The notes beneath the pieces are model-generated. The model searched no databases and was not told where the DNA came from. It worked only from the letters and a program-made list of their open reading frames with translations. A stretch of 64,000 bases of DNA from an uncultured Gammaproteobacteria bacterium (GTDB lineage: Bacteria > Patescibacteriota > Microgenomatia > JAMCZE01): the NCBI GenBank assembly GCA_964576435.1, contig CAZNUP010000002.1, positions 183,182 to 247,181 of the forward strand, given 5' to 3'. Shown here piece after piece: positions 27,683 through 64,000 of the stretch (position 1 is the stretch's first letter; every line of letters begins with the position of its first letter). Position numbers and translations under genes: made by a program.

Positions 27683-27746
27683 CCAGGGAACTATAACATT
27701 TACCTATAGTATTGTAAATAGGAATAATTAGTCTTATAATGTATAT

Positions 27747-45490: not shown

Positions 45491-45555
45491 ATTTGTTTTA
45501 TTATACCTCAGATTTATATCAACCTGATAAGACTTGTCTATTTATGATCCTATAG

Positions 45556-45561
45556 TATAAT
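45556..45561 (+). promoter_or_regulatory. -10 box (TATAAT) within conserved atcctatagtataataat motif, 6 nt upstream of ATG 45568
   Basis: Identical to the motif at 29073..29090. Confidence 0.4.
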
Positions 45562-50206: not shown

Positions 50207-50207
50207 T

Positions 50208-51893
50208 TTGATGCACGAGATCTATCTTCTGACTCTAATTCTTACACTTGCCGCGGCACTGGCGATTTTTACTAAAAGATTAGGGCTCCCTCTTCTCGTT
50301 TCCTATATTGCTGTCGGGGCAGCACTGTCGGCGTTTCATATTATAAAGCCTGAACAGCTGGAGTTTTTGGCAATTCTTCCTGAAATTGGTTTGGCGCTTC
50401 TTCTTTTTCTTGTGGGGATGGAACTTGATTTATCTGAATTTAAAGCTATTGGTAAAAAGGTAGTTTTAGTTACTTTAGGGCAAGTCCTTATAACATCAAC
50501 AATTGTATATTTAGGGCTTACTTTTTTTGCGGGCGTTTCTTCTGTTGCGGCAATAATCCTTGCTGTAGCACTGTCATTTAGTAGCACGATTTTGGTTATT
50601 AAGCTTCTTATTGAAGAAAAAGAGCTTACTTCACTTCATGGGAAACTGTCGGTTGGAATTCTTCTTGTGGAAGACCTTATTGCTGTTCTTCTTCTTATGA
50701 TGATGACGGTGGTTTTTGGAGGACAGGGGGGATTTGGTTCAACTGAACTTATTCTTGTTTTAGTTAAGGGAATGCTTCTAATTGCATTTGCGATTTTTGC
50801 AGGCAAAAAACTTTTGCCAGCAATCTTTAAACTGACAGCTGACTCAACAGAACTCTTATTTTTAGCAGGAATTTCTTGGTGTTTAATTTTTGTAACAATT
50901 GCTTCACTTCTTAATTTCTCCTTGGCAATTGGTGCGTTCTTGGCTGGCGTCTCACTGGCTCAGTCGGTTTATAGACTTCAGATTTCAGGAAAAATAAAAC
51001 CACTTAGAGATTTCTTTATTATGATTTTCTTCTTGGATCTTGGAACCGGACTTTCCATTAGTGGACTTGGAACTTATTTGTTTATGGGACTAGCATTTCT
51101 TGTTTATGCTGTCGCAATTAAGCCAATAGTTTTTTATGTACTATTTACACTTTGTAAGTTTAGATTAAGACCAGCATTTGAAACTGGTGTTTACATTTCG
51201 TCGATTTCAGAATTTTCTTTAATTGTTTTAGTGTCAGCAAGTAAACTTGGAATAATTGATAAAACTTATTTGTCTCCTTTAATTTTTGCTACTGTGTTTT
51301 CATTTATTTTTTCGTCACTTCTTGTAACTCATAAGAAAGGGTTGTTTGCAAAGCTTGGTGGCGTTTTGAAGAAATTTGAAAGAGGGGCAGCGGAGAACTT
51401 GGAAGGCGGGACACACGAACTAACAGATCATGCGGTTTTAATTGGTTGTCATAGAAGTGGAGAAATAATTCTTCAAAAACTTCAGAAGATTTACGATAAA
51501 AATGTTTTAGTCTTGGATTTTAATCCGGATGTTGTTCAAAAACTTAAAAGTGAGGGAGTGGCTGCAGTTTATGGCGATGCATCTGATCTTGAGATTTTGG
51601 AGGGACTTAGACTTGGTGAAGCTAAGGTCATAGTTTCAACTGTTCGTGATTTTAAAGACAATTTGGTTCTTCTTGATACCATTTTGAAGGAAAAATCCAA
51701 GGCAACGGTTATAATTACGGCAGAGGATGCTAAAAGTGCACTGGTCCTTTACGAAAAGGGTGCGCATTATGTTTCGCTTCCCATGAATTTGGAAGGTAGA
51801 CATATTAGCCAACTTATCTCGACTGATCTTAAAAAAGAAAAGGCAGAGAGACTGGAGGAATTAGAACATGCCGAAATTCATCGCGAAAAATGA
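50208..51893 (+). CDS. monovalent cation:proton antiporter-2 (Kef-type) with C-terminal RCK/TrkA-N domain
   Basis: About 12 TM helices plus a Rossmann GxGxxG region (HAVLIGCHRSGEIILQKL). Confidence 0.82.
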   Translation: MMHEIYLLTLILTLAAALAIFTKRLGLPLLVSYIAVGAALSAFHIIKPEQLEFLAILPEIGLALLLFLVGMELDLSEFKAIGKKVVLVTLGQVLITSTIVYLGLTFFAGVSSVAAIILAVALSFSSTILVIKLLIEEKELTSLHGKLSVGILLVEDLIAVLLLMMMTVVFGGQGGFGSTELILVLVKGMLLIAFAIFAGKKLLPAIFKLTADSTELLFLAGISWCLIFVTIASLLNFSLAIGAFLAGVSLAQSVYRLQISGKIKPLRDFFIMIFFLDLGTGLSISGLGTYLFMGLAFLVYAVAIKPIVFYVLFTLCKFRLRPAFETGVYISSISEFSLIVLVSASKLGIIDKTYLSPLIFATVFSFIFSSLLVTHKKGLFAKLGGVLKKFERGAAENLEGGTHELTDHAVLIGCHRSGEIILQKLQKIYDKNVLVLDFNPDVVQKLKSEGVAAVYGDASDLEILEGLRLGEAKVIVSTVRDFKDNLVLLDTILKEKSKATVIITAEDAKSALVLYEKGAHYVSLPMNLEGRHISQLISTDLKKEKAERLEELEHAEIHREK

Positions 51894-52188
51894 TCCTTTC
51901 AAATGTGAACACTGTGGATTTGATGTTCCCCCAATAGTTTATGGTGGGTCTTACAGAAATCATTGTCCCAATTGTTTGTGGAGTAAACATGTTGATAGCG
52001 ATGTTCCTGGAGACCGTGCAAACGCCTGTAAGGGTCTTATGGAGCCCATTGGTGTCCAAACGAGAAGAACCGGGGAATATGTTCTTGTACACAAATGTGT
52101 GGCTTGTGGGTTCGAAAGGTTGAACAGATTAGCTGGGGATGATAATATCGAGCTAGTTACAGAGATATCAGGCCGCCCTATTAAATAA
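51868..52188 (+). CDS. RNHCP-domain zinc-ribbon protein
   Basis: CEHCGF...RNHCPNCLWSKHVD...HKCVACGFER. Confidence 0.55.
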   Translation: MPKFIAKNDPFKCEHCGFDVPPIVYGGSYRNHCPNCLWSKHVDSDVPGDRANACKGLMEPIGVQTRRTGEYVLVHKCVACGFERLNRLAGDDNIELVTEISGRPIK

Positions 52189-52195
52189 ATCAAAT

Positions 52196-52402
52196 ATGAA
52201 GCACTCATCTGAGATAGTAAACAGACCAAAACTTAGGCGCCTAAAAATATTTGCGCTCTTTTTCCCTCTTACTGGAGTTCCAGTCATTATGGCCGATACC
52301 ATAGATAAAGGATTTAGACGGTTTCTCGATGATTATATTCAAACTGAAACACAGATTTCGATGCTAAGAATGTCTGACAATAACTCTAAATCTTCTAGAT
52401 AA
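52196..52402 (+). CDS. hypothetical small protein
   Basis: 68-aa ORF with weak support. Confidence 0.25.
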   Translation: MKHSSEIVNRPKLRRLKIFALFFPLTGVPVIMADTIDKGFRRFLDDYIQTETQISMLRMSDNNSKSSR

Positions 52403-52405
52403 ACC

Positions 52406-53590
52406 GTGACCAAGTTCCAAGTAACTGCATTGGATGGTAAAGCGCGAAATGGAAAATTAATTACGCCAAGGGGGGAAGTTTTAACTCCGGTTTATCTTCC
52501 TGTGGGAACTCAAGCAACTGTAAAAGCAGTTACTCCTGAACAAGTTAAAGCGATTGGTGCGGAGATGATTCTTTCAAATACATATCACTTATATCTTCGT
52601 CCTGGAGCTGATACGGTTTTTGAACTTGGAGGTCTTCATAAGTTTATGAATTGGGATAGGCCAATTCTTACAGATTCTGGTGGTTTCCAAGTTTTCTCCC
52701 TTGGGTTTGGGGTAGAACACCAAGTAGGAAAAATATTTAGAGCAGGGGAGGAAGATCTGGTTCTTGGAGATTTTGAATCTAAAGATGTGGTTGTTCGGAC
52801 CAAACTCTGTAAAGTGGAAGAAGAAGGGCCAACTTTTCAGTCTCATATAGATGGCTCAGTGCATTTCTTTTCTCCGGAAGTGTCAGTTGATGTTCAAGTT
52901 AAACTGGGGTCGGACTTTATAGTGGCCCTTGATGAATGTACTTCACCCCTTCATGACTATGATTACACAAAAAATTCAATGGAAAGATCTCATAGATGGG
53001 AAAAGAGATCTTTAGAAGCTGCCCCAGAACATAACATGTTTGGAGTTATTCAAGGCGGACCGTTTGAAGATTTAAGGATTGAGTCGACAAAGTTTGTTTC
53101 CAAAAACGATTTCTTTGGAGTAGGAATTGGTGGAGCCTTAGTTTCTAGACAGAAGATGGTAGAGATTTTGGATTGGATTTATCCACATCTTGATTCCTCT
53201 AAACCTCGTCATCTTTTAGGAATTGGAACCGTTCCTGATATCTTTCTTGCAGTGGAACGGGGAGTTGATATGTTTGATTGTGTAGCACCAACAAGAATAG
53301 CTAGGAACGGTAGGCTTCTTGTGAGACGCGGGCATATTGATATTACAAAAGCTGAGTTTAGGGCGGATCCTTCACCAATTGAATTTGATTGCGACTGCTA
53401 TACTTGTCAAAATTACTCCCGAGCTTACGTACATCAACTTTTCAAAGCTCATGAACTTTTGGCCTATACACTTTCGACGATACATAATTTAAGATTTATG
53501 AGTAGGTTAATGAGTCTTATTCGGGAATCTATTAATGAAGGTCGTTTTTTGAAGCTAAAGGCAGAATGGCTTCAGGATTATGAAACATAA
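52406..53590 (+). CDS. tgt: queuine tRNA-ribosyltransferase
   Basis: TPRGEVLTPVYLPVGTQATVKAV; ILTDSGGFQVFSL; Zn site CDCYTCQNY...H. The start codon is GTG. Confidence 0.9.
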   Translation: MTKFQVTALDGKARNGKLITPRGEVLTPVYLPVGTQATVKAVTPEQVKAIGAEMILSNTYHLYLRPGADTVFELGGLHKFMNWDRPILTDSGGFQVFSLGFGVEHQVGKIFRAGEEDLVLGDFESKDVVVRTKLCKVEEEGPTFQSHIDGSVHFFSPEVSVDVQVKLGSDFIVALDECTSPLHDYDYTKNSMERSHRWEKRSLEAAPEHNMFGVIQGGPFEDLRIESTKFVSKNDFFGVGIGGALVSRQKMVEILDWIYPHLDSSKPRHLLGIGTVPDIFLAVERGVDMFDCVAPTRIARNGRLLVRRGHIDITKAEFRADPSPIEFDCDCYTCQNYSRAYVHQLFKAHELLAYTLSTIHNLRFMSRLMSLIRESINEGRFLKLKAEWLQDYET

Positions 53591-54524
53591 AAGAAAGCGG
53601 TCGTCTTCTGGTGGTGGACTTGGTGGAATCTTTAAACTCATTATTATTCTCCTAATTCTTGGGGGCCTGGGAGTATTTCTTGCTAAATTTGCTCCAGTTA
53701 TGCTTGCTGGGAAATTTAGCAGCAGTGAAAGATTTAATTTAGTGGTAACTTCTCCTGAAAAGACGGCATTCTTATCGCTTGATCCGGATTCTAAAAAAGC
53801 AACGATTATTGACTTTCCAACTGATCTTTATATTACTGATGTTGCTCATGGATATGGACAATACCCATTGTCTAAAGTTTATGAAGTAGGGGAACTTGAT
53901 AAACGAGGCGGCACAGTGTTGTCAGATACCGTCTCTACATATCTTGGGGTTCCTGTTAATGGATATATAAGGCTTGCTGGTTTTTCGCCGCAAAATTTGA
54001 AGGCCAGTATTGTGTCTCCGGGATTTATTCTTAACCCAAATTCTAATGTGAATTTGTGGGATAGATTTCTTCTCGCTAAAGAGTTTTTCAATTTGAGGTT
54101 TGACCGAATTAAAACCATTGGACTTTCTAAAAGAACTGAACCTTTGATGCTCGCAGATGGGTCAACTGTAAAAGTTTTTTTAGAAGAAGATTTGGATAAT
54201 ATTTTAGGTGGGGTGTTTGCTGAGGAGCCGATTTTAAAAGAGGGAATGAGAGTGCAAATTATAAATACGACTGAAACTCCTGGTCTTGGTAATGCTTTTG
54301 CGAGAATAATTTCAAGTATTGGGGCGGTTGTAATTGATGTGACAACATCGGAACAAAATTTTGCGGGATGCAAAATTGAAGCCAGTGAGAAAATGTTGAA
54401 ATCTAAGACAGTTTCAAGAATCTCTGAAATTATGGGTTGCCAAACTAAGAAAAATGATGACACAGGAAGAGCGGATGTCATAGTTTATCTGGGGCAAGAC
54501 CAAGCTAAACTTTTCATGGATTAG
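53580..54524 (+). CDS. LytR-CpsA-Psr (LCP) family cell-envelope phosphotransferase
   Basis: N-terminal TM helix, an LCP core (FNLVVTSPEKTAFLSLDPDSKKATIIDFPTDLYI) and a C-terminal LytR_C-like domain. Confidence 0.78.
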   Translation: MKHKRKRSSSGGGLGGIFKLIIILLILGGLGVFLAKFAPVMLAGKFSSSERFNLVVTSPEKTAFLSLDPDSKKATIIDFPTDLYITDVAHGYGQYPLSKVYEVGELDKRGGTVLSDTVSTYLGVPVNGYIRLAGFSPQNLKASIVSPGFILNPNSNVNLWDRFLLAKEFFNLRFDRIKTIGLSKRTEPLMLADGSTVKVFLEEDLDNILGGVFAEEPILKEGMRVQIINTTETPGLGNAFARIISSIGAVVIDVTTSEQNFAGCKIEASEKMLKSKTVSRISEIMGCQTKKNDDTGRADVIVYLGQDQAKLFMD

Positions 54525-54714
54525 CTGTTAAAATCCTCCTTATGTTTGAAGGTGTTCAGTTTTGGCAGGTACTTGTAGGGATTTTTGTGGCTTCTATACT
54601 TCTTGCTTGGTGGTCGATGAGAGAGATAAAAGCTCCAAGGGATTTTTATCCTAAAATTGAGAACAAGGTAAAGAAGCTTCTTTCTGGAATAATCTATTTA
54701 CCAAAAGCCTAAAT

Positions 54715-55500
54715 TTAATTTTCCTCTGGCATTTCATCTTGATGGAGTTTTTCTGCCTTTTTGAATGATGCTTCGTCTTCGTCGTCACCACTATCTTCAT
54801 CTGTTGCTTCTTTTTCAGTGTCGTCGACATGATTGTCGTCTCTGACAAAACTTAGATAGTCGGTTGAGCCACTTGGGAAAGAGGGAGTGTTTTTGAATTT
54901 CTTAGATCTAACCCTTTCTCTTATGAAAAGGACTAGGCTACCTTTTCCAACGGATCTAACAAAAGCTTCGTATTCGTTTCCACCTTTAATTAGAACAAGA
55001 ATTCGGTGTCCTAGGTCGTCTGGGAGGGCACCGAGATAGACTCCATCAGCTCTTTCAGCAAAGATGGTATGTCTTTTGGCTGTCAGACTTACGTGATCGG
55101 TGCATTGTAAGGTTAGAAGCACTTTTGCAGGTGCGACATTAACTAGAGTGATCATCTTAGTTTTGCCTGGTTCTTCAAGGAAGCTAATGGTTGGGGACTG
55201 GGGACGGTTTGGTGTTTCATCAGTTTTGCCTTTTTGTTTAGTTTTAGGAGCACTTGTTTCATTAGCACGAAGGAGGTTTTTAGTAGCGATTGGATCGTAT
55301 TTATTAACTTTCAATACCTCTTTAAAGTATGTGGCCGCCTTTTTGTTGTTGCCAAGCTCTAAATATGCCCTACCTAATCTATTTAGACAGTCGAGATCAG
55401 TGGGATCATCTTTTAGGATTTCTGTATTTAAATCGACAGCCCTTTGCCAATTTTGGGCAAGAGCCGCGTCAATTGCTGCCTGTGTTTTTTGTTCGAACAT
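54715..55500 (-). CDS. TPR-repeat protein with acidic C-terminal tail
   Basis: N-terminal TPR units (LNRLGRAYLELGNNKKAATYFKEVLKVNKYDP) and a DE-rich C-terminus. Confidence 0.45.
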   Translation of the reverse strand: MFEQKTQAAIDAALAQNWQRAVDLNTEILKDDPTDLDCLNRLGRAYLELGNNKKAATYFKEVLKVNKYDPIATKNLLRANETSAPKTKQKGKTDETPNRPQSPTISFLEEPGKTKMITLVNVAPAKVLLTLQCTDHVSLTAKRHTIFAERADGVYLGALPDDLGHRILVLIKGGNEYEAFVRSVGKGSLVLFIRERVRSKKFKNTPSFPSGSTDYLSFVRDDNHVDDTEKEATDEDSGDDEDEASFKKAEKLHQDEMPEEN

Positions 55501-55532
55501 TAGTTGACAATTATATAGTAAAATACCTGTAA

Positions 55533-56219
55533 ATGTCAGGACATTCTAAATGGTCCACTATTAAAAGGCAAAAGGGGGTTACTGACGCTAAAAGGGGTAA
55601 CCTCTTTACAAAGCTTTCAAACGCTATAACAATAGCAGTTCGTGAGGGTGGTGGCGGAGATCCAAGTTCAAACTTCAGATTAAGACTTGCCATGGATAAA
55701 GCCCGTGAGGCTAATATGCCTAAAGAGAATATTCAGAGGGCAATTGATAAAGGAACTGGTAAGGGTGGAGCAGTTGAGCTGTCAACAGCGATTTATGAAG
55801 GCTTTGCTCCTGGGAATGTGGCAGTTATTGTCGAAACTATTACTGACAATACAAATAGGACAGGAGGGGAAATTAGAACTATCTTTGATAAGAATGGTGG
55901 CAGGATTGCTTCAGTTAACTATATGTTTACCAGGGTTGGGGAGATTGAAGTAACTGGAGATGAAGTATTTGAAAAAGCACTGGAGGCTGGGGCAGAAGAT
56001 GTTGAAGAAAATATTGTTTATACAAGACCAGAAGATCTTCACAAAGTGAAAGAAAAACTTGAAGCCTCAGGACTTACTGTCACACAAGCAGGATTAATTT
56101 TCAAACCCAATAAAGAGACCATGATTACACTTGATGATGAAAATGGTGAAAAAGTGATGTCCTTTGTAGAAAAAATTGAAGAAATGGATGATGTACAAAA
56201 TGTATTTGTAAATATTTAA
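55533..56219 (+). CDS. yebC: YebC/PmpR-family transcriptional regulator
   Basis: MSGHSKWSTIKRQKGVTDAKRGNLFTKLSNAITIAVREGG is the DUF28 signature. Confidence 0.9.
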   Translation: MSGHSKWSTIKRQKGVTDAKRGNLFTKLSNAITIAVREGGGGDPSSNFRLRLAMDKAREANMPKENIQRAIDKGTGKGGAVELSTAIYEGFAPGNVAVIVETITDNTNRTGGEIRTIFDKNGGRIASVNYMFTRVGEIEVTGDEVFEKALEAGAEDVEENIVYTRPEDLHKVKEKLEASGLTVTQAGLIFKPNKETMITLDDENGEKVMSFVEKIEEMDDVQNVFVNI

Positions 56220-56223
56220 ATAT

Positions 56224-56517
56224 ATGCTTGGTGTTCCAGAAAATTCGCAACCTTATTATGGTGGAGATGGTGGTATAGCGAAGGATATACCAGAGGGGCA
56301 ATTGGAAGCGAAATTAAGAAAGATGGTGGAGAAGGCAGGAGGAGACCCAGATAAAGTATTAGGAAAGATTGTGCAAGGCAATAATCCACCCCAACCCCCT
56401 TTGTTCCCACTAGAAAGTGTTGGTGGTAAACCAGATGATAGTTCTTCAGAACTGACCCCTGATGATATTAGGAGATTAGGTCGAGAAGGTGTAAGCAGGA
56501 CAAAAGCGTTGGAATAA
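56224..56517 (+). CDS. hypothetical protein
   Basis: 97-aa ORF, G/P-rich. Confidence 0.3.
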   Translation: MLGVPENSQPYYGGDGGIAKDIPEGQLEAKLRKMVEKAGGDPDKVLGKIVQGNNPPQPPLFPLESVGGKPDDSSSELTPDDIRRLGREGVSRTKALE

Positions 56518-56519
56518 AT

Positions 56520-57071
56520 ATGCTAATTCTTGGAATAGACCCCGGCACAGCACGACTAGGAATTGGGCTCATTGAGACCACTTCTGATGGCGATGGAAAA
56601 CCAAATAGTATGAAATATATTTATGCTAATTGCTTGGAAACAAGTATGGATTCCACTCCGGGAGATCGGCTTTTTTATCTTGAAGAAGAACTAGCTAAGA
56701 TAGTTTCTGAATATAAACCTGATGTCGCCTGTGTTGAAATGCTTTTTTTTGGAATTAACGCCCGGACTGCAATTGCTGTTGGGCAGGCGAGGGGGGTAAT
56801 CCTTGCAACTCTTGCTAAATATAAGATTCCACAAATTGATTACCAGGGGCTTTCTGTAAAATTTGCGGTTACTGGTTTTGGGAAAAGTGACAAGAAACAA
56901 ATGCAGGAAGCAGTTCGAGTTCATCTTGGGATGAAAGAGGTTGTTAAACCTGATGATGCTGCTGATGGACTTGCACTTGCTATTACCCACTATATTAAAC
57001 TTAAGAATGGCGATCAGCCAAAGGCGAAGCCTAAGGCAAAACCAAAGAAAGCCAAGAAGAAGAAAAAGTGA
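56520..57071 (+). CDS. ruvC: crossover junction endodeoxyribonuclease RuvC
   Basis: MLILGIDPGTARLGIGLIE with catalytic acidic residues, followed by a Lys-rich C-terminal tail. Confidence 0.9.
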   Translation: MLILGIDPGTARLGIGLIETTSDGDGKPNSMKYIYANCLETSMDSTPGDRLFYLEEELAKIVSEYKPDVACVEMLFFGINARTAIAVGQARGVILATLAKYKIPQIDYQGLSVKFAVTGFGKSDKKQMQEAVRVHLGMKEVVKPDDAADGLALAITHYIKLKNGDQPKAKPKAKPKKAKKKKK

Positions 57072-57919
57072 AAAGAATTCTCAATTTAACTAAAAGGCAA
57101 AAGTTTGCCATCGCTACGGTGGTGCTTTTGTTGGCAATAATTGCGATTCGAGCATTTGGTTTGGAACAAATCGCCTGGAGATTTAGGGTGGGCGTTTTTG
57201 CGTTGATATCAATTGGGGTTACATTATTTGCTCTCAAGGATGAAGATTTTTCTGGTTCAGAGTGGTTTTTACTTCCCATTTTGCCGGTTTTTTTCTCTGT
57301 TGGGTCGGTTCTCGTTTACCCACTCCTTCCTCAAAGGATGGATAATTTTTTGGGAATAGCTGTTCGACCTGACACAGGATTTATTTTGGGAGTAATTGTG
57401 AGGGCAATTTTTCTTGGATTTTTTGTAGTAGGGTATTATGCGGCGCTTTTGACCTCAAATATTTACAACGTGGCTGCCGTTAAAGGGATTCAGCTCCTCC
57501 GTGTGGCACACTCAATTGGGTTTTTAACCACGGTTGCTACAGCACTTTTCTTCTATATAGTTATTAGCTCGTTTCATTTATCTAGTTTTCAAAACTTTGT
57601 AGCGGTATTTTTAGTGTCATGGCCTTTGGCACTTCAATCTATTTGGAGTATAAATTTGGAAAGCAAAGTGGGGGAGAATGTTAGGAATTTTTCCCTTATT
57701 ACGGCGCTAATTCTTGCAGAAGCTGCTTTTATTTTGTCATTTTGGCCACTTGGAGTATCAATTTTTGCATTGTTCCTGACAGCCTTATTTTATGAGGTGA
57801 TTGGGATAGTGCAGTTTCATATGGGGGAAAAACTGTCTTCAAGGATTGTTAACGAGTTCGTAGCGGTAGCAATTGTTGTATTTTTGTTAACCGTGTTTAC
57901 AACAGTTTGGGGAGCTTAG
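57068..57919 (+). CDS. hypothetical integral membrane protein
   Basis: About 8 TM helices, no motif recognised. Confidence 0.45.
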   Translation: MKRILNLTKRQKFAIATVVLLLAIIAIRAFGLEQIAWRFRVGVFALISIGVTLFALKDEDFSGSEWFLLPILPVFFSVGSVLVYPLLPQRMDNFLGIAVRPDTGFILGVIVRAIFLGFFVVGYYAALLTSNIYNVAAVKGIQLLRVAHSIGFLTTVATALFFYIVISSFHLSSFQNFVAVFLVSWPLALQSIWSINLESKVGENVRNFSLITALILAEAAFILSFWPLGVSIFALFLTALFYEVIGIVQFHMGEKLSSRIVNEFVAVAIVVFLLTVFTTVWGA

Positions 57920-58099
57920 TTTGAGGTGGGGAAGAGAGGAGTCTGAAAAACTATAAGACTTAATGCGGGGATCTTTTCACTAATTTGGGGACAGGTTTTC
58001 ACAAATATCAAACTATATCATTATCAGATATACAACAGGGATTAAACGCTACAATGGCGAGGATAAACGCATAAAAAACCCGAAAGCTACGCTGGAAAT

Positions 58100-58530
58100 A
58101 GAAGATATATCGCATTGCTACGCTCCAAATATCACGACGTAATGGAAATTATAGGACTAATATTTACGGTCAAAAATGATAGTTTAGACTGTTTTTATGC
58201 TCCAAACTCCATCGAAATTCATCATGGTCTTGTATACTTTTGCTACAGCTCCCAATGAAAGAAGTGAGGTCAAACTGTGAAAGAAAGAGCGTTCTTATGC
58301 TCCGCAAATGAACACAAAATATATTGCCAAATATTAATATTTACGCTCAAAAATGATTGTTTTGGCTGATAATATGCTCCAAAGTAGAGTGGAAGTGAGG
58401 TTGCTCCTTAGATACCAAAAGAGAGGTTGGTTTATTCGAAAAGATGTTCCTATTAACTAACAAGAGAGTGTATTACTTTTGCCAATTAAAAGGTTTTGTA
58501 GTTACTGATAAGTTTCTATGCTCCCTAATA
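58100..58530. repeat. degenerate direct-repeat array (49-nt units at 58158-58206 and 58335-58383; five tatgctcc/tacgctcc cores) in the 0.9-kb intergenic region upstream of the recombinase
   Basis: The two 49-nt units are about 84% identical (taatatttacgNtcaaaaatgatNgttt..ctg.....atgctccaaa). gaagtgaggt recurs at 58261 and 58392. Confidence 0.55.
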
Positions 58531-58837
58531 GTGAGGGGTCTTAAAAATAGCTTTTTGTTGACAATTTAGGCTGTGGGGTGGTAAATTGGTTATGTCGTAA
58601 ATTGTATCTTTAACGACGTATAAGCTCGAAACTGAGAGAAGAGTAAGGATTTGGCTTTTTGCCTTGTTTTTTTATTTTTGTACTTAATATTGTGTTTCAG
58701 TTATACTGATCATTATTAATTTGACCTTATATTCTCGACTTACTAGTTAGGTGTTATCCCCTACTATAGGTTAAAGAGTGTATTTGGAGAATCAGATATA
58801 GATTGATTTAACAATATAAATAGACCACCCTTTTTGT

Positions 58838-59767
58838 ATGGCAGATAAATTATTAGTGGAGTACATTACTGATTTCCTCGAATACTGTGAGCTTGACCGG
58901 AATTTGTCACCACTGACAGTTAAGATGTATGGTTATTACCTACAAAGCTTTGCTGGATGGCTTAGTGAAACTAAGCAAAGTATTAGGCCGCAAGACCTCA
59001 CAGAAGACACCTTAAGGGACTACCGTTTGTATCTAAGCAGGTATGTAAATCCTGTCAAAGGACCATTAGCAAAGCCTACTCAAAATTATTTCCTTATAGC
59101 TATAAGAGCGTTTCTAAGATTTTTAAATAAGAAAGGAGTAAAAACTTTAGCGCCTGATCAAATAGAACTTGGAAAGAATAGAGACAGGCAAATTAAATTC
59201 TTATCTAAGGATCATTTAGAATTGTTACTTGCCGGACCAGATACTGATACTGATGAAGGAATGAGAGACCGGGCAATATTAGAATTATTTTTTAGTACAG
59301 GACTTCGTGTGTCAGAACTAACAAGACTTGATAGAGATAAAGTTAATTTAGAAACAAAAGAATTTGGAATAATTGGTAAGGGCGGACGGGCGCGGGTGGT
59401 GTTTATATCAACCAGGGCATGTGAAATCCTTGGAAGGTACCTTTCACGGCGTCAGGATATTTGGAAGCCATTATTCATTCGTTATAGTGGAAAGGTTGAT
59501 GAAAATGACCAAGGAAATAAAATGCGACTTACTCCAAGAAGCGTTGAAAGAATGGTTGCCAAATATGTTAAGAAAGCAAAGTTGCCAGTCAATGCAACGC
59601 CACATACCTTGAGACATTCGTTTGCTACTGATCTACTTATGAACGGCGCTGATTTGAGAAGTGTTCAGGAAATGCTCGGACATAAAAATGTCGCTACAAC
59701 TCAAATTTATACTCACGTTACTAATGCAAAATTAAAAGAGGTTCACGAGAAGTTTCATGGGAAGTAG
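58838..59767 (+). CDS. tyrosine site-specific recombinase (XerC/XerD-like)
   Basis: N-terminal SAM-like core-binding domain plus catalytic R..HxxR..Y (ELTRLDRD...; HTLRHSFATDLLMNGADLRSVQEMLGHKNVATTQIYTHV). Confidence 0.85.
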   Translation: MADKLLVEYITDFLEYCELDRNLSPLTVKMYGYYLQSFAGWLSETKQSIRPQDLTEDTLRDYRLYLSRYVNPVKGPLAKPTQNYFLIAIRAFLRFLNKKGVKTLAPDQIELGKNRDRQIKFLSKDHLELLLAGPDTDTDEGMRDRAILELFFSTGLRVSELTRLDRDKVNLETKEFGIIGKGGRARVVFISTRACEILGRYLSRRQDIWKPLFIRYSGKVDENDQGNKMRLTPRSVERMVAKYVKKAKLPVNATPHTLRHSFATDLLMNGADLRSVQEMLGHKNVATTQIYTHVTNAKLKEVHEKFHGK

Positions 59768-59938
59768 TTCTATTTCGGGGGTTCATCAAACCTGTTTGCT
59801 ATAACAGCGATTTCAATTATGCCACTGGTCCAACTGGCAATTATAAGCCACATTCCTGTAATATGGTCATGTTGCAATATTATTAGTCCCAGAAGTTATT
59901 GGTATAAAAAATGTTCAATCGGAACCATACGTCGTAGA

Positions 59939-60367
59939 TTATTGTTTCTCTTGTGAATTGTCATTTTCGTCGCTGCTCATGTCTGCATAATATTGATCCC
60001 AGACTTTATTTTTTAGTTGCCTTTCTATGAGATTTTGTCTTGCTTTAAGTCCAGTGGAGATCAGCTCAGCAAATCCTATACTAAACATAAAATAACCGGT
60101 GTAAAAGTCTCCCTCAGCCATATTTTTGATTCCTGCAGTCAATAGTAAAATTCCTACTGAGGCTCTAAAAAAAGGCATCTTTTCGTTCCGCTTGTTTGCT
60201 AAGGCTTTTCCCATGTCAAGTCTAACTAAAAGATTTCCCTTCCCATCAAATTTAGCAGTTAATGGATGGCTTCTTGCTTCCTGATAATTGGAAGCAAGGA
60301 CATCGACTGTGGTTGCGGCTACAGGCCCAAGGGTCAATGTAGCTAACTCTAATCCCCCTGCAATCAT
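59939..60367 (-). CDS. hypothetical protein
   Basis: 142-aa ORF with an N-terminal hydrophobic region. Confidence 0.35.
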   Translation of the reverse strand: MIAGGLELATLTLGPVAATTVDVLASNYQEARSHPLTAKFDGKGNLLVRLDMGKALANKRNEKMPFFRASVGILLLTAGIKNMAEGDFYTGYFMFSIGFAELISTGLKARQNLIERQLKNKVWDQYYADMSSDENDNSQEKQ

Positions 60368-60505
60368 ACGAGTATTTTAAACTATAGGGTGAAAATTGTA
60401 AAGATTACCTTTTTTTGCGACTTAGGGTTAGATTTTTGTCCGTTTGGGTTTGGTTTGACTGATACTTGGTTGTTTGCGATTACAATGGGCGCCTTAGGTA
60501 ATATG

Positions 60506-61435
60506 TTAAATAAGGCCGATTTCTTTTGCCCATTGGTCCTCCTGGTTGCCAAGAAGCTCTATTGCTTGTATTACTTCAAATGGGTCAATTCTACCCCTTT
60601 TTGCTTGGATTGCTAATTCTGGTGTGCTATGTGTTACGTCGTGATGACCTTGTGCATCGGTGACAAATTTACCGGCTTTTAAAATACTTTCATTAAAGGC
60701 AATCACAACACCCCCACGCTCTTCTGTTGCAGTTTCAAGAAATTCGAATACAGTTTGAATTTTGTCTGGAGATATTAGGTTTGAAAAAGTTGTCAAAAGT
60801 GGATAACGGTTCTTATAGGATAAATACTGTGTGGGGTCTATACTCTCGTAACTTGCTTGCTCGATAGAATTCCTCAAATGTTCAAAAAATGCTTCGAAGA
60901 CTAAAGCATCAGAATAATGTCGACTTTTTGCAGATTCGTCTATCTGGTTTATGATAATTTGCCTTAAATCTTTTATGTAATTTCCCTTGAAAAGAGGAAC
61001 AACATTTCTATGAACGGCCATTAGAAAAGCACCCATGCTTGCATATCTATTGACGTTGTTGTCAGTTATTTCAGTGTGGAAGGATTGTGTCGGGTTATAT
61101 GTTTCACCAACAAGTTCTTGATGGTCTCTGAAGTATTGGTGTGAATATAGTGGAGTAGTGTAATACCAGCCTTTGGCTTTTCCTCGTACTGCCATATTCG
61201 AATCCTTATCTACTTTAATTTCTCCGTCTGCAAGTTGGCCGAATATATTGAAAAAATCATCTGAACGTACAGCGACAATATTGTTTTTCTCTTGATTAAG
61301 ATTTGTTCCTAAAAATGCTTTCGTTTGTTGGACTCGATAAGGATTGCGCGCAAACTTTGTTTTTATTTCGAATAAAAGAGATTTTTCAACCTCGCCAAAG
61401 TGAGGTGCATCAGTCGGTTCGCCGAATCTTGGCAT
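60506..61435 (-). CDS. hypothetical protein (no recognisable domain)
   Basis: 309-aa ORF whose start is 4 nt from the upstream SIMPL gene's stop. Confidence 0.45.
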   Translation of the reverse strand: MPRFGEPTDAPHFGEVEKSLLFEIKTKFARNPYRVQQTKAFLGTNLNQEKNNIVAVRSDDFFNIFGQLADGEIKVDKDSNMAVRGKAKGWYYTTPLYSHQYFRDHQELVGETYNPTQSFHTEITDNNVNRYASMGAFLMAVHRNVVPLFKGNYIKDLRQIIINQIDESAKSRHYSDALVFEAFFEHLRNSIEQASYESIDPTQYLSYKNRYPLLTTFSNLISPDKIQTVFEFLETATEERGGVVIAFNESILKAGKFVTDAQGHHDVTHSTPELAIQAKRGRIDPFEVIQAIELLGNQEDQWAKEIGLI

Positions 61436-61438
61436 GTC

Positions 61439-62212
61439 TTATCTTGTTTCGTAACTTAAAGTTATTTGAACTATAATTTCTGTTTGGCCTGGTTCGATCT
61501 GGGTTGGAACTTGATCGGCCGCTACTGCATTTTCCTTTGCCATAGACATAGTTGGGTAGTTCCCTCCCCTGCCAACTTGCGATTCATAAACGTTGATTAT
61601 TTTCCCAAGCGTAATTCCAGTTTCTGAAGCTAGTGCATTGGCATTTGCTTTAGCGTCAGCTATAGCAAGTTTACGAGCTTCATTTTGGAACTTTTGTGGA
61701 TCGTCAATTGTAAAAGATAGACCGCCAATTTGATTGGCTCCATTTGCGGTTGCCACATCAATTACCTGGTTAATTTTTTGGAAATCTCTAACCTTAACTT
61801 GCATATTAACGTTGACGTTATAGCCAGTTATTTTTGGTTGTGATCCAGTATCTCCAAGACCAAGAGGAGTTGGTTGGGTGGAATACTCAGGTGAGATATT
61901 GTAATTGGTTGTTTGAATATCTTTTTCTGGAATACCAAGAGCTTTTAATTCTGAATTTATTTTATTAACTGTTTCATTCGCTTTGTTTTGAGCAGCGCTT
62001 ACTGTTGGGGCAGAATAGGTGTAACCAATTTGGACAATTGCGACATCGGGCTTAGCGTAAACTTTTCCTTCACCATTTGATGTAAAGAATTCAGATTTAT
62101 TTGTGTTAACAACTGCAACTGGAATACTTGGACCAAAAGAAGCGTAAAGGCCAAAGAGAACGAAAAAGGCTACAAGAATTATTAAAGCGCTGACTGGTAT
62201 TTTATTGCTCAT
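61439..62212 (-). CDS. SIMPL-domain (DUF541/BP26-like) exported protein
   Basis: Signal/TM segment plus PDVAIVQIGYTYSAPTVSAAQNKANETVNKINSELKALGIPEKDIQTTNYNISPEY, which fits the SIMPL core. Confidence 0.65.
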   Translation of the reverse strand: MSNKIPVSALIILVAFFVLFGLYASFGPSIPVAVVNTNKSEFFTSNGEGKVYAKPDVAIVQIGYTYSAPTVSAAQNKANETVNKINSELKALGIPEKDIQTTNYNISPEYSTQPTPLGLGDTGSQPKITGYNVNVNMQVKVRDFQKINQVIDVATANGANQIGGLSFTIDDPQKFQNEARKLAIADAKANANALASETGITLGKIINVYESQVGRGGNYPTMSMAKENAVAADQVPTQIEPGQTEIIVQITLSYETR

Positions 62213-62466
62213 CTTATTGGTGGTGGTTTAATTATTGAACCAGAACATTTATTGTCTACGCATTTCATAGAGCCAAGTGATTTGTTTGTGCAGCGCATTA
62301 TTGGTCCGCAGCGCAGTGTACAGTCACTATCTCTTGTGCAATAAGATCCTGGTTTTGGCACACTTCTATATGCTTGCGGAGAGAAGTTTACACCACTTTG
62401 AACAAGAACAACAGCAGAAATTACGGCTACTACTAGAATGAGAATAAACAAAAGCTTCATGCACAC
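62209..62466 (-). CDS. small secreted cysteine-rich peptide (8 Cys)
   Basis: Signal peptide, then a C-x6-C-x3-C-x6-C-x8-C-x4-C framework plus further Cys. Its stop overlaps the SIMPL gene start. Confidence 0.45.
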   Translation of the reverse strand: MCMKLLFILILVVAVISAVVLVQSGVNFSPQAYRSVPKPGSYCTRDSDCTLRCGPIMRCTNKSLGSMKCVDNKCSGSIIKPPPIR

Positions 62467-62486
62467 TCATTAATGCAAAAAAGAAT

Positions 62487-64000
62487 TTATTTTTCAAGAG
62501 CAGCTACTGCTGCCACTTTGTCTCCCTTTTCGGAGAAGCGCATGAGGATAACACCTTGGGTGCTTCTGCCTAATTTCGGAACTGAAATGATTGGAAGTTT
62601 TATCACAATGCCCTTTGACGAAGTTAATATCAGTTGATCAATGGTTTCGTCGACCATTCTTGCGGTTACTAAGTTTCCAGTTTTGTCTGTGAGATTCATG
62701 GCTTTTACTCCCATACCTCCCCTACCTTGCTTTGGGAATTCTTTGACGATGGTTCTTTTGCCAAGCCCATTTTCAGCAACAACTAGAAGTTCTGGGTTTT
62801 CATTTGGTGAAATTGATTCCATTCCAACTACAAAATCGCTTTTTGAGAGTTTGATACCTCTAACACCAATAGTGTCTCTTCCTTGAGGTTTGGCTTCCTT
62901 TTCAGAGAATCTGATGGATTTGCCTTCATGAGTTACAAGTAAAATATCATCGTCACCGGCCGTTAATTTTGCCCAAACTAGTTCGTCCCCTGATTCTAGT
63001 TTGATTGCAGTTAGGCCATTTCTTCTTATGTTTGTAAATTCAGTCAGTGAAGTCTTCTTGACCGTACCAGCTTTGGTTGCTAGGAACACATATCCTGGTT
63101 TATCAAGCTTTGCTGGGTAAGTGAGAATTGATTGCACACTTTCTCCTTGCTCACTACTAATGATATTAACAATTGCTTGACCTTTGGCTTGTCTACTTCC
63201 TTCAGGGAGTTCAAAAACTCGTGTTTGATAGACCTTGCCTTTATTTGTAAAGAAAAGAATATTATCATGGGCATTTCCTGTTACTAGATGTTCGATTTCG
63301 TCTTCTTCTTTTGTGGTCATCCCAGTTACTCCTTTACCACCTCTGGCTTGTGCTTTGTAAGCAGTTGGTGAGAGCCTTTTGACATAGCCAGTTTTAGTAA
63401 CAGTTATGACCATGGGTTCGTTTTGGACCAGGTCTTCTTCTGAAAATTCCCCTACTTTACCTTTAATGACTTTGGTTCTTCTGTCATCACCGTACTTTTC
63501 TTTGAGTTTTATCAGTTCGTCTTTAATGACAATCATGATTTTCTCTGGATGAGCAAGAAGGTCTTCAAGATATGCAATGGTTTCTCTGATCATTGCTAAT
63601 TCGTCTTCAATCTTTTGTCTTTCCAAAGCCGCTAGTCGTCTTAGCTGCATATCTAAGATAGCGGTTGCTTGAATGTCTGATAGCTTGAATCTGTCCATGA
63701 GTTTTCCTTTAGCAATATCAGCCGATTCTGCTTTTCTAATGATTGCTATAACTTCGTCAATATGGTCGACAGCAATCTTTAAACCTTCTAAGATATGCTC
63801 TCTAGCTTTTGCTTCTCTTAATTCGTATTCACTTCTTCTTCTGACAACATTTTGGCGGTGCTTTAGATATTCATCCAAAATCATCTTAAGTGTTAGAGTT
63901 TGTGGGGTGTTATCAACTAAAGCGACCACATTAACCGGATAAGAGATCTGAAGATTGGTGTGTTTAAAGAGATTATTCAAAACGGATTGGGGTTTGGCGT
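62487..64000 (-). CDS. gyrA: DNA gyrase subunit A, C-terminal ~500 aa (5' end beyond window)
   Basis: LFKHTNLQISYPVNVVALV, a coiled-coil region (LSDIQATAILDMQLRRLAALERQKIEDEL) and repeated beta-pinwheel GKG/GGxG blades. The ORF is open to the window end. Confidence 0.88.
   Translation of the reverse strand, partial: AKPQSVLNNLFKHTNLQISYPVNVVALVDNTPQTLTLKMILDEYLKHRQNVVRRRSEYELREAKAREHILEGLKIAVDHIDEVIAIIRKAESADIAKGKLMDRFKLSDIQATAILDMQLRRLAALERQKIEDELAMIRETIAYLEDLLAHPEKIMIVIKDELIKLKEKYGDDRRTKVIKGKVGEFSEEDLVQNEPMVITVTKTGYVKRLSPTAYKAQARGGKGVTGMTTKEEDEIEHLVTGNAHDNILFFTNKGKVYQTRVFELPEGSRQAKGQAIVNIISSEQGESVQSILTYPAKLDKPGYVFLATKAGTVKKTSLTEFTNIRRNGLTAIKLESGDELVWAKLTAGDDDILLVTHEGKSIRFSEKEAKPQGRDTIGVRGIKLSKSDFVVGMESISPNENPELLVVAENGLGKRTIVKEFPKQGRGGMGVKAMNLTDKTGNLVTARMVDETIDQLILTSSKGIVIKLPIISVPKLGRSTQGVILMRFSEKGDKVAAVAALEK

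What the first reader, a model, noticed from the sequence alone, without database searches (positions are those of the whole stretch)
57920..59767. Degenerate direct-repeat array in a 0.9-kb noncoding stretch immediately upstream of a tyrosine recombinase
The only large intergenic region in the window (57920..58837) carries five copies of a tatgctcc/tacgctcc core at 70-180-nt spacing. Two 49-nt units at 58158-58206 and 58335-58383 are about 84% identical, and a gaagtgaggt element recurs at 58261 and 58392. It ends at the start of a XerC/D-like recombinase gene. Candidate interpretations are iteron-like or arm-type binding sites of an integrated element, a Xer/dif-associated region, or a decayed repeat or noncoding-RNA array. 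I could not find a canonical 28-bp dif palindrome or DnaA boxes. The genes after the recombinase (59939..62466) are all unknown or niche, which is consistent with cargo.
Basis: seen in the sequence. Interest (0 to 1): 0.6.

Follow-up and report, generated by a model that had tools for sequence, protein, structure and literature searches.

The report
Chromosome dif site with flanking repeats
The repeat-filled gap in front of the recombinase gene is this uncultured bacterium's chromosome-untangling (dif) locus, and the repeats are a motif kept beside that site in about a hundred related genomes, which ordinary chromosomal dif sites are not known to need.

Summary
TAYGCTCC occurs 6 times in the window, 5 of them in 58119-58524, and the two 49-nt units are 86% identical.

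A canonical 28-bp Xer site (11-6-11), ATGTCGTAAAT TGTATC TTTAACGACGT, lies at 58592-58619, 219 bp upstream of xer.

- One equally oriented copy sits in the same gene neighbourhood (YebC-RuvC-DUF5656-gap-site-Xer-SIMPL-GyrA) in 98 distinct related CPR/Microgenomates loci.
- A polar G-rich motif switches strand inside this gap. In the window, GGGGA has 112 top-strand hits, all at or before 57987; six of its 16 bottom-strand hits lie at or after 58757.
- In pooled relatives, AGGGGAG is 72:1 (top:bottom) left of the site and 16:142 right of it, regardless of gene strand.

So this is the dif locus, not an integrated element.

The repeats are the local form of a conserved dif-flanking half-site (GGCTAAA in relatives). 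It is organised in a 43-49-nt unit about 230 nt left of dif, duplicated here and in at least 8 relatives, and it recurs just right of dif.

I infer accessory protein-binding sites. RNA covariation, Rfam and helical-phasing tests gave no support for the alternatives. Third-codon-position GC skew does not switch at dif, which is unexplained.

The parts
57068..57919 (+). DUF5656 membrane-protein gene, the conserved left neighbour of the dif region
   Evidence: Pfam PF18900. A homologue ends 350-950 nt before the dif-like site in nearly all related loci, including L058 where this module is inverted relative to xer.
57920..58837 (.). Noncoding dif region (918 nt), the largest gap in the window
   Evidence: No ORF longer than 63 aa. 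Largest gap in the window. An equivalent gap is present in relatives.
57926..57942 (+). Top-strand G-run just after the DUF5656 stop; the last top-strand GGGGA copies are at 57928, 57967 and 57987
   Evidence: A conserved block GGGGAAGAGAGGAG is seen in relatives.
57974..58002 (+). Two TTTTCAC motifs (57974-57980 and 57996-58002)
   Evidence: Invariant in the alignment of close relatives. In pooled loci the motif is enriched on the top strand at -600 to -200 from dif.
58007..58020 (+). ATCAAACTATATCA block, the reverse complement of the TGATATAGT repeats found in more distant relatives
58073..58086 (+). AAAAAACCCGAAAG block (AAAAATACGAA in distant relatives)
   Evidence: Nearly invariant in six close relatives. 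AAATACGAA occurs on the top strand only, at -400 to -100 from dif.
58088..58129 (+). First pair of half-sites, TACGCTGGAAA and TACGCTCCAAA, 31 nt apart
   Evidence: (family D7).
58158..58206 (+). 49-nt composite unit, copy 1 (the extra copy): two direct half-sites 31 nt apart around TTTAGACTG
   Evidence: 86% identical to copy 2. Matches the unit profile built from relatives at E = 6.5e-5.
58261..58270 (+). GAAGTGAGGT, first of two exact copies (purine run)
   Evidence: GTGAGG is only mildly strand-biased in the window, 15:5.
58296..58306 (+). Single half-site TATGCTCCGCA
   Evidence: A homologous GTTATGCYC block is seen in L001, L003 and L004.
58335..58383 (+). 49-nt composite unit, copy 2 (the copy shared with relatives), followed by GTAGAGTGGAAGTGAGG, which includes the second GAAGTGAGGT at 58392-58401
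   Evidence: Aligns with single units in L001, L003, L083, L004 and L002. GCTCCAAAGTAGAG is kept in L003 and L083. It starts 257 nt left of dif, within the usual range of unit-to-dif distances in relatives.
58517..58527 (+). Half-site TATGCTCCCTA, followed by AGTGAGGGG
58558..58587 (+). Sigma-70-type promoter-like site, TTGACA-18-TAAATT (with TG), ending 4 nt before dif
   Evidence: Best promoter match in the region, 10 of 12. TTGACA, 17-18 nt, TAnnnT, 4 nt, then dif is also found in L001, L003 and L083.
58592..58619 (+). dif core: ATGTCGTAAAT | TGTATC | TTTAACGACGT (11-6-11)
   Evidence: The only PWM hit in the window. A single, equally oriented site is present in 57 of 81 sequences in the genome set and in about half of the metagenome loci. 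It lies between the last top-strand and first bottom-strand GGGGA.
58621..58648 (+). Half-site TAAGCTCGAAA directly after the right arm, then purine run TGAGAGAAGAGTAAGG
   Evidence: In relatives GGCTAAA peaks at +28 to +60, followed by GGGAGAAG or GGGGAGGG.
58757..58770 (+). TCCCCTACTATAGG: conserved block that contains the first bottom-strand GGGGA; possibly the xer promoter
   Evidence: In pooled loci ACTATAGG peaks at +150 to +200.
58799..58820 (+). TAGATTGATTTAACAATATAAA, a copy of the palindromic core of the relatives' unit, on the right side of dif
   Evidence: nhmmer hit to the unit profile, E = 0.0055.
58838..59767 (+). xer: Xer-family tyrosine recombinase, 309 aa
   Evidence: Pfam Phage_integrase and SAM-like domains. 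XerC 239 bits, XerD 235 and XerA 203.5, all below the equivalog cut-offs. The best solved relatives are archaeal XerA and E. coli XerD. The catalytic motifs LRVSE, HTLRH, LGH and IYTH are visible in the translation.

Best explanation
The 0.9-kb stretch is the dif region of a CPR (Microgenomates-type) chromosome.

Shown:
- A 28-bp Xer core site with two 11-bp inverted arms around a 6-bp centre lies at 58592-58619, 219 bp upstream of the only Xer gene in the window.
- One such site, in the same orientation and the same gene neighbourhood, is found in 98 distinct related loci.
- A very strongly polar G-rich motif (GGGGA / AGGGGAG) points at this site from both sides, independently of gene strand. 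FtsK-orienting (KOPS-type) sequences behave this way around dif.
- The 'direct-repeat array' is the local spelling (TAYGCTCCAAA) of a half-site that is specific to the dif region in relatives (GGCTAAA, about 50 times background).
- The half-site is organised as a 43-49-nt unit with two direct half-sites 30-32 nt apart around an inverted one. The unit usually lies about 230 nt left of dif, with further copies directly right of dif and at about +200.
- The unit is duplicated in the window and in at least 8 relatives.

Inferred:
- The half-sites bind an accessory DNA-binding protein that shapes or controls the Xer-dif complex, much as accessory sequences do at plasmid Xer sites.
- Chromosome dimers are resolved here by Xer, with a KOPS-reading translocase bringing the sites together.
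- In this sub-lineage a sigma-70-type promoter fires straight into dif, so Xer bound at dif would also repress xer.
For: - **Core site.** Searches show the 11-6-11 structure. The asymmetry between the arms is conserved (GTCGCACAA versus GTCGTAAAA). There is one hit per locus, and all but one are on the xer strand.
- **Synteny.**
- **Polar motif, window.** GGGGA has 112 top-strand hits, all at or before 57987, and 16 bottom-strand hits, six of them at or after 58757. Fisher p = 1.5e-6. TGGGGA, GGGGAA and GGGGGA are the most strand-skewed hexamers in an unbiased scan.
- **Polar motif, 98 pooled loci.** GGGGAG is 154:12 on the left and 57:251 on the right. AGGGGAG is 72:1 and 16:142. The top 8-mer, AGGGGAGA, points toward dif 100 times and away 4 times.
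- **Independence from gene strand.** '+' ORFs on the right carry 39 bottom-strand and 4 top-strand copies. '-' ORFs on the left carry 6 top-strand and 0 bottom-strand copies. The switch is located between +100 and +200.
- **Repeats.** Clustering in the window is shown. The unit profile hits most loci, at distances from -204 to -274 with a mode of -232, and several loci have two copies. GGCTAAA reaches 2.8 per kb at -300 to -200, 1.3 per kb at +28 to +60 and 2.1 per kb at +200 to +250, against about 0.05 per kb elsewhere.
- **Conservation.** The unit is conserved in close relatives whose intergenic DNA is otherwise only 48% identical.
- **Sequence, not pairing, is conserved.** The CTAAA / TTTAG cores hardly vary, and 259 of 500 shuffles reach the observed covariation score.
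- **Motif order and orientation differ between lineages.** ACTATATCA here corresponds to TGATATAGT in distant relatives. That fits DNA sites better than one RNA.
- **Promoter.**
- **KOPS properties for comparison.** PMC3384302.
Against: - No protein is identified that would bind the half-sites.
- Distances between the unit and dif show no helical phasing.
- The extra copies in the window are degenerate and could be neutral duplications.
- Third-codon-position GC skew, read in the orientation of dif, is positive on both sides (L+ 0.165, L- 0.230, R+ 0.116, R- 0.168). It is positive on the right in 87 of 91 loci, out to +16 kb. So the site is not at the mutational-skew switch where dif usually lies (PMC3025954).
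- A conserved top-strand G-run at +45 lies on the 'wrong' side of the core.
- Copy number per whole genome, the presence of FtsK, and recombination activity could not be tested.
- Roizmanbacteria-type loci lack a PWM hit near xer.
Confidence: 0.7

Rival explanations
1. The repeats are neutral, decaying local duplications in a dif-adjacent gap that tolerates junk. Only the 28-bp core and perhaps one unit matter.
For: - Copy 1 of the unit and several lone half-sites have no counterpart in L001, L003 or L004.
- The copies are degenerate.
- Gap length varies from 305 to about 950 nt among relatives.
- There is no helical phasing.
Against: - The same half-site is kept on both sides of dif across relatives whose Xer is 54-60% identical, at about 50 times background and almost only on one strand.
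- Duplication of the unit recurs independently in at least 8 loci.
- L083 also shows a run of GCGYWAAA-type half-sites.
- CPR genomes are otherwise compact: the next largest gap in the window is 326 nt.
Confidence: 0.15
2. The stretch encodes one or more noncoding RNAs, for example a small-RNA family with a GCUCCAAA seed, or a long RNA running from the DUF5656 stop to dif. On this reading the repeats are RNA modules.
For: - The unit contains a hairpin-capable inverted repeat, paired in 84% of cells, and many one-sided changes give U-G on the top strand.
- Variable GC-rich hairpins, one with a TTCG loop, sit between conserved blocks in L003 and L083.
- A purine run and a matching pyrimidine run lie about 70-120 nt apart between the unit and dif in many relatives.
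- Promoter-like elements are present.
Against: - No Rfam family matches, even at E up to 10.
- There are no tRNA or tmRNA genes.
- RNAalifold finds only the two palindromes.
- Covariation is no better than shuffles.
- Position 6 of the hairpin is mismatched in 12 of 32 units.
- The order and orientation of blocks differ between lineages.
Confidence: 0.1
3. The oriented half-sites are polar replication-fork barriers (Ter-like sites) that make forks cross dif in one direction only.
For: - All half-sites share one orientation on both sides of dif.
- GC3 skew shows that the DNA on both sides is replicated in the same direction.
- Inference only: the CTAAAT core loosely recalls part of the B. subtilis Ter consensus, as I remember it.
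Against: - No terminator protein is known or found.
- A barrier that the usual fork passes freely leaves no testable trace here.
- The resemblance to Ter is recalled from memory and covers only 5-6 bases.
- A fork trap needs sites in opposite orientations.
Confidence: 0.04
4. One reading: arm-type or iteron sites of an integrated mobile element whose integrase is the adjacent recombinase, with cargo genes downstream.
For: - A recombinase gene lies next to repeats.
- Two downstream ORFs (59939-61435) have no homologue in related loci or in any family library.
Against: - The locus is syntenic in about 100 genomes.
- There is no att duplication and no second core site.
- The recombinase is Xer-type without an arm-binding domain.
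- The polar motif converges here.
- No viral contig carries the core site.
Confidence: 0.01

Closest known systems
XerS/difSL module of streptococci and lactococci (single recombinase genetically linked to its site; PMC2965235, PMC2731167)
   Same: - The recombinase gene lies directly downstream of its own dif-type site.
- A polar purine-rich motif family converges on the site (PMC3384302).
- The site is chromosomal and conserved across a whole lineage.
   Different: - The recombinase is not a XerS orthologue (129.5 bits against a cut-off of 267). It scores like XerC, XerD or XerA.
- The core is 28 bp (11-6-11), not the 31-bp difSL.
- In many relatives 1-5 kb of other genes separate the site from xer, and the constant neighbour is DUF5656, not xer.
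- No conserved kilobase of flanking motifs is described for difSL.
XerCD/dif with FtsK and KOPS (E. coli and most bacteria)
   Same: - A 28-bp core with 11-bp arms and a 6-bp centre. The centre TGTATC differs by one base from E. coli TGTATA, as I recall it.
- G-rich polar motifs switch strand at the site, with skew of about 0.9-1.0, like known KOPS.
   Different: - Only one Xer gene is seen, next to the site.
- The arms are nearly palindromic.
- The polar motif is AGGGGAG-like, not GGGNAGGG.
- The site is not at the GC3-skew switch.
- The core is embedded in conserved flanking motif arrays, which chromosomal dif sites are not known to need.
Plasmid Xer sites with accessory sequences (cer, psi)
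   Same: A Xer core flanked by a few hundred bp of conserved, protein-binding-type sequence that could impose directionality or control.
   Different: - This locus is chromosomal, not plasmid-borne.
- The motifs lie on both sides of the core.
- The motifs (GCTMWAAA, TTTTCAC, and in relatives TGATATAGT and a DnaA box) are unrelated to ArgR, PepA or ArcA sites as far as I know.
- The binding proteins are unknown.
- KOPS-type polarity suggests a translocase is also used.
Archaeal XerA/dif (PMC2958812)
   Same: - Closest solved structures by sequence (4a8e and 5hxy).
- A single recombinase acting on a near-palindromic site.
   Different: - The XerA equivalog cut-off is not reached (203.5 bits against 220).
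- The organism is bacterial.
- A polar motif converges on the site, which implies an FtsK-like partner. As I recall, XerA acts without one.

Membership tests
Chromosomal dif site (Xer target for dimer resolution) | About 28-bp core: two roughly 11-bp inverted arms around a 6-8-bp centre | tested here: met
   58592-58619 reads ATGTCGTAAAT/TGTATC/TTTAACGACGT. Eight of 11 arm positions are complementary here, and 8 of 11 between the two arms of the relatives' consensus site.
Chromosomal dif site (Xer target for dimer resolution) | Polarity of KOPS/AIMS-type oligomers converges on the site | tested here: met
   In the window, GGGGA is 112:10 (top:bottom) on the left and 0:6 on the right. Pooled AGGGGAG is 72:1 on the left and 16:142 on the right, independent of gene strand.
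Chromosomal dif site (Xer target for dimer resolution) | Lies at or near the GC-skew shift point | tested here: not met
   GC3 skew keeps the same sign from -58 kb to +5 kb in the window and out to +16 kb in 87 of 91 relatives. The true distance to the shift point is unknown.
Chromosomal dif site (Xer target for dimer resolution) | A cognate Xer-family recombinase is encoded in the genome | tested here: met
   58838-59767 scores as XerC, XerD or XerA-like, with catalytic motifs present.
Chromosomal dif site (Xer target for dimer resolution) | One copy per chromosome; recombination demonstrated | not testable with these tools
   There is one copy per 64-kb window and per locus. Whole genomes and activity cannot be examined here.
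XerS/difSL-type single-recombinase module | Recombinase gene adjacent to its site | tested here: met
   The gap is 219 nt in the window, 0.2-0.9 kb in many relatives and 1-5 kb in others.
XerS/difSL-type single-recombinase module | The recombinase is a XerS orthologue | tested here: not met
   NF003462 scores 129.5 bits against a cut-off of 267.
Integrated element with arm-type sites / att | Duplicated att core at the two ends; element absent from some relatives; integrase with an arm-binding domain | tested here: not met
   There is a single core, conserved synteny, and only SAM-like and catalytic domains.
Replication origin / iteron region | Cluster of DnaA boxes and a skew switch from negative to positive | tested here: not met
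   No DnaA box with one mismatch or fewer lies in 57920-58837, and the window total is at the chance level. Skew does not switch. The polar motif converges rather than diverges. Relatives do carry one perfect box in the gap.
Known structured RNA family / tandem or CRISPR-like array | Match to a covariance model, covarying helices, or regular tandem units | tested here: not met
   Rfam gathering and E up to 10 give nothing relevant. ARAGORN finds nothing. TRF finds nothing. RNAalifold and pair counts show no covariation.
Plasmid-type Xer site with accessory sequences (cer/psi) | Accessory-protein binding sites flank the core and are required for recombination | tested here: inconclusive
   Conserved flanking motif arrays exist. 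The binding proteins and the requirement are unknown, and the replicon is a chromosome.

The most novel reading that the evidence does not exclude
Microgenomates keep a dedicated nucleoprotein 'dif organiser' of about 1 kb. It would consist of oriented CTAAA-type half-site units on both sides of the Xer core, together with TTTTCAC pairs, 10-nt-spaced TGATATAGT repeats and a DnaA box in most relatives. These sites would bind accessory proteins that control chromosome dimer resolution, making this a chromosomal counterpart of plasmid cer/psi accessory sequences. They may also link dimer resolution to DnaA. The locus is deliberately placed away from the replication-skew switch, so segregation polarity (KOPS and gene orientation) and replication polarity are uncoupled in this lineage.
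Probability: 0.25. Interest if true: 0.75.

Novelty: new variant of a known kind. Interest (0 to 1): 0.55.

Why it matters
No description of a dif site or of KOPS-type polar motifs in the Candidate Phyla Radiation turned up in the searched literature.

This locus supplies both for a large CPR lineage, which has three practical uses:
- It gives a sequence-level landmark for the segregation terminus.
- It helps with checking and orienting metagenome-assembled genomes.
- It gives a concrete substrate (28-bp core plus Xer) for biochemistry in organisms that cannot be grown alone.

The unusual part is the conserved kilobase of oriented motifs around a chromosomal dif. Canonical dif works with the core alone plus FtsK, as far as I know. 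If the flanks prove to be required accessory sites, that would be a new way of controlling chromosomal Xer recombination.

The mismatch between motif polarity and mutational skew also bears on the old question of whether replication ends at dif (PMC3025954).

Tried and rejected
- **Tandem repeats.** Tandem Repeats Finder found nothing.
- **Known RNAs.** Rfam at gathering threshold and at E up to 10, on the window and on 12 related loci, gave only chance-level hits. ARAGORN found no tRNA or tmRNA in the gap.
- **Hidden gene with TGA recoded.** Stop-free stretches grow to 101-128 aa under tables 4 and 25. However, TGA ends 7 of 34 confident genes and the stretch is not conserved as coding.
- **Origin of replication.** The window's DnaA-box count is at chance, none lies in the gap, and no dnaA signature is in the window.
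- **Terminus by plain GC skew.** The apparent plateau at 60-64 kb is a gene-strand effect. GC3 skew does not turn there.
- **Integrated element or IMEX.** There is no second core site, and no viral contig carries the core.
- **Consensus RNA structure.** None was found for the left part of the gap in six relatives. Across 16 relatives from the unit to dif, only the two palindromes were predicted.
- **Covariation in the unit hairpin.** No better than shuffles.
- **Helical phasing of unit-to-dif distances.** None.
- **Half-sites as extra Xer arms.** They share only AYG...AAA with the arms (6-7 of 11 bases) and less in distant relatives, by my reading. Rejected as unsupported.
- **GAAGTGAGGT as the local KOPS.** GTGAGG is only 15:5 skewed, whereas GGGGA is the polar core.
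- **Extending the contig to the right.** The contigs that carry the SIMPL gene are 5.5 kb or shorter.
- **FtsK in the held loci.** No Walker-A match was found.
Full report
**1. The observation**

The stretch 57920-58837 has no ORF longer than 63 aa. It is the largest gap in the window, 918 nt against 326 nt for the next largest.

TAYGCTCC matches six times in 128 kb of both strands. Five matches lie on the + strand between 58119 and 58524, and no shuffle out of 100 reached six. The two 49-nt units are 42/49 identical, and GAAGTGAGGT is exact at 58261 and 58392.

With two mismatches allowed, there are nine half-sites of the form TAYGCTCCAAA, including three pairs spaced 30-31 nt. This is a dispersed degenerate array, not a tandem one. 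The description is confirmed, except for the statement that no 28-bp dif palindrome exists.

**2.

At 58592-58619 lies ATGTCGTAAAT TGTATC TTTAACGACGT. It has two 11-bp inverted arms around a 6-bp centre, and it sits 219 bp before the xer start.

The recombinase is a Xer-family enzyme. It scores 239 bits for XerC, 235 for XerD and 203.5 for XerA, all below the equivalog cut-offs. Its best solved relatives are archaeal XerA and E. coli XerD, and the catalytic motifs are present.

**3. Relatives**

Scans with the Xer protein returned 80 genome loci and 80 metagenome loci, all CPR/Microgenomates: Levyibacteria, Roizmanbacteria, Curtissbacteria, Gottesmanbacteria and others. Only five or six are closer than 64% identity.

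A position weight matrix built from the first matches finds exactly one site in 57 of 81 sequences of the genome set. It also finds one in about half of the metagenome loci, many of which are too short on the relevant side. Every site but one is on the xer strand. The consensus is AYGTCGYAMAA TAATAC TTTTRCGACRY, with a conserved asymmetry between the arms.

The gene order is conserved: YebC, (RuvC), DUF5656, a gap of 350-950 nt, the site, about 200 nt of further noncoding DNA, 0-5 kb of variable genes, Xer, then SIMPL and GyrA on the other strand. In L058 the DUF5656-gap-site module is inverted as a block and lies downstream of xer. The constant partner of the site is therefore the DUF5656 gene and its gap.

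This rules out an integrated element. There is no second core, and no viral contig carries the core.

**4. Is it dif?**

An unbiased comparison of 7-mers on the two strands, left and right of the site, was pooled over 98 distinct loci. AGGGGAG stood out: 73 top to 1 bottom on the left, and 16 top to 145 bottom on the right.

The effect does not follow gene orientation:
- On the right, '+' ORFs carry 39 bottom-strand and 4 top-strand copies.
- On the left, '-' ORFs carry 6 top-strand copies and none on the bottom strand.

The best 8-mer, AGGGGAGA, points toward the site 100 times and away 4 times.

In the window itself GGGGA has 112 top-strand hits, every one at or before 57987. It has 16 bottom-strand hits, six of them at or after 58757. 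That gives 112:10 left of the site against 0:6 right of it, p = 1.5e-6. TGGGGA, GGGGAA and GGGGGA are the most strand-skewed hexamers of the window.

Convergent, gene-independent, near-total polarity of a G-rich oligomer is the signature of FtsK-orienting sequences around dif (properties in PMC3384302). At an origin the motif would diverge. I therefore take the 28-bp site to be the dif of this lineage. I found no paper describing dif or KOPS in CPR.

**5. A conflict that stays open**

Third-codon-position GC skew, expressed in the orientation of dif, is positive for genes of both strands on both sides: L+ 0.165, L- 0.230, R+ 0.116, R- 0.168. It is positive on the right in 87 of 91 loci, with no decline out to +16 kb.

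Gene orientation does turn at the site, at 82% '+' on the left and 66% '-' on the right. So motif polarity and gene orientation converge on dif, while mutational strand bias continues through it.

Published surveys place dif within 0-1.4% of the genome from the skew shift point, with outliers up to 3% (PMC3025954). An offset of 16 kb or more, always on the same side, in genomes of roughly 1 Mb is at the edge of that range. Whole contigs are needed to settle this.

**6. What the repeats are**

Close relatives (L001, L003, L083, L004, L002) align poorly over the gap, at 48% mean column identity, but they share discrete blocks:
- a G-run after the DUF5656 stop
- two TTTTCAC motifs
- ATCAAACTATATCA
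- AAAAAACCCGAAAG
- one copy of the 49-nt unit
- a TTGACA-17/18-TAnnnT promoter ending 4 nt before dif
- dif itself
- CCCCTACTATAGG

The window's copy 2 (58335-58383) is the copy shared with relatives, and copy 1 is an extra.

A profile of the unit built from distant relatives has the consensus TGAGGCTAAAAT-N6-GTTTAGATTGATTTAACAATCTAAAT. It hits most loci at -204 to -274 from dif, with a mode of -232, and several loci have two copies.

The half-site GGCTAAA is specific to the dif region. It reaches 2.8 per kb at -300 to -200, 1.3 per kb immediately right of the core and 2.1 per kb at +200 to +250. Elsewhere it is about 0.05 per kb, and it lies mostly on the top strand.

The window shows the same layout in its own spelling. 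Units lie on the left, TAAGCTCGAAA sits one base after the right arm, and a copy of the unit's palindromic core lies at 58799-58820.

**7. DNA sites or RNA?**

The unit's inverted repeat is paired in 84% of cells, but covariation equals the shuffles (259 of 500). One position is mismatched in 12 of 32 units. What stays fixed is the CTAAA / TTTAG sequence itself.

RNAalifold on six close relatives gave no structure, and on 16 distant relatives it gave only the two palindromes. Rfam gave nothing. Block order and orientation differ between lineages.

These results favour protein-binding DNA sites. The lack of helical phasing and the lack of a candidate protein keep this an inference. Hairpins with compensating sequences in L003 and L083, and purine/pyrimidine runs between the unit and dif, mean an RNA is not excluded.

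**8. Mechanism proposed**

Shown: the core site, its conservation, the convergence of the polar motif, and the dif-specific, oriented, repeatedly duplicated half-site unit.

Inferred:
- Xer resolves chromosome dimers at 58592-58619.
- A KOPS-reading translocase aligns the sites.
- An unidentified accessory protein occupies the GCTMWAAA half-sites on both flanks and shapes or gates the synapse, comparable to cer/psi accessory sequences.
- In the window's sub-lineage the promoter at 58558-58587 starts transcription inside the left arm, so Xer bound at dif would repress xer.

**9. Other features in relatives**

In relatives the same gap also holds TGATATAGT repeats at 10-nt spacing and one perfect DnaA box, present in 29 of 47 gaps and on the top strand only. 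The window has only a decayed box. I cannot say what these features do.

**10. Verdict**

The finding is a real, non-random repeat array. It belongs to a conserved xer-dif locus and not to a mobile element. It is a new variant of a known kind of system. Two features would interest specialists: the conserved kilobase of oriented motifs around a chromosomal dif, and the uncoupling of motif polarity from mutational skew.

Noticed in passing
window 1-64000; related loci L001-L162: A KOPS-like polar motif (core GGGGA / AGGGGAG) is almost entirely on the + strand up to 57987 and on the - strand from 58757 onward. In 98 pooled loci it points at the dif-like site from both sides, regardless of gene strand.
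   Followed up: yes
window 50000-64000; right flanks of about 90 related loci: Third-codon-position GC skew does not change sign at dif and stays positive out to +16 kb, although gene orientation and the polar motif both turn there. The replication-skew switch must lie elsewhere, always on the same side.
   Followed up: partly
L009-L079 and L085-L160, from -800 to -100 relative to the dif-like site: The DUF5656-to-dif gap of Levyibacteria-type relatives carries, on the top strand only and in fixed order: TGATATAGT repeats at 10-nt spacing, one perfect DnaA box TGTGGATAA (29 of 47 gaps), two TTTTCAC motifs, and AAATACGAA. The window has only a decayed box, TGTGGGGTG at 58573-58581.
   Followed up: partly
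about +45 from dif in relatives; window 58633-58648: A conserved top-strand G-run (GGGAGAAG or GGGGAGGG) lies just right of the core. Its orientation would be non-permissive for a translocase arriving from the right. The first bottom-strand copy is the CTCCCC of CTCCCCTACTATAGGG, near +180.
   Followed up: no
window 27703-27710(-), 29074-29081(-), 45549-45556(-), 58763-58770(+), 60381-60388(+): ACTATAGG occurs five times against 1.3 expected, and every copy is in intergenic DNA. One lies about 60 nt upstream of tRNA-Leu. It may be a promoter element of this lineage.
   Followed up: no
window 59939-61435 (- strand): Two ORFs of 142 and 309 aa lie between xer and the conserved SIMPL-gyrA block. 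They have no homologue in any of the 80 related genome loci then held and no hit in Pfam, NCBIfam, PHROGs or PADLOC. This is a small lineage-specific insert next to the dif locus.
   Followed up: partly
L001 5664-6002: In the closest relative, a 112-aa ORF between dif and xer gives a weak LAGLIDADG endonuclease hit (E = 2.9e-4, below the cut-off).
   Followed up: no
L058 (CAYPVH010000003.1): The DUF5656-gap-dif module is inverted relative to xer and lies downstream of it. GC3 skew is inverted along with it, so dif keeps its orientation relative to the strand bias.
   Followed up: partly
L004 6916-7241: 5S and 23S rRNA genes lie directly after xer, on the opposite strand.
   Followed up: no
record titles of L001, L003, L004 and many others: Many CPR metagenome-assembled genomes in the genome collection are titled 'uncultured Gammaproteobacteria'. 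Their gene content and nearest relatives are Patescibacteria, so these are probably mislabelled records.
   Followed up: no
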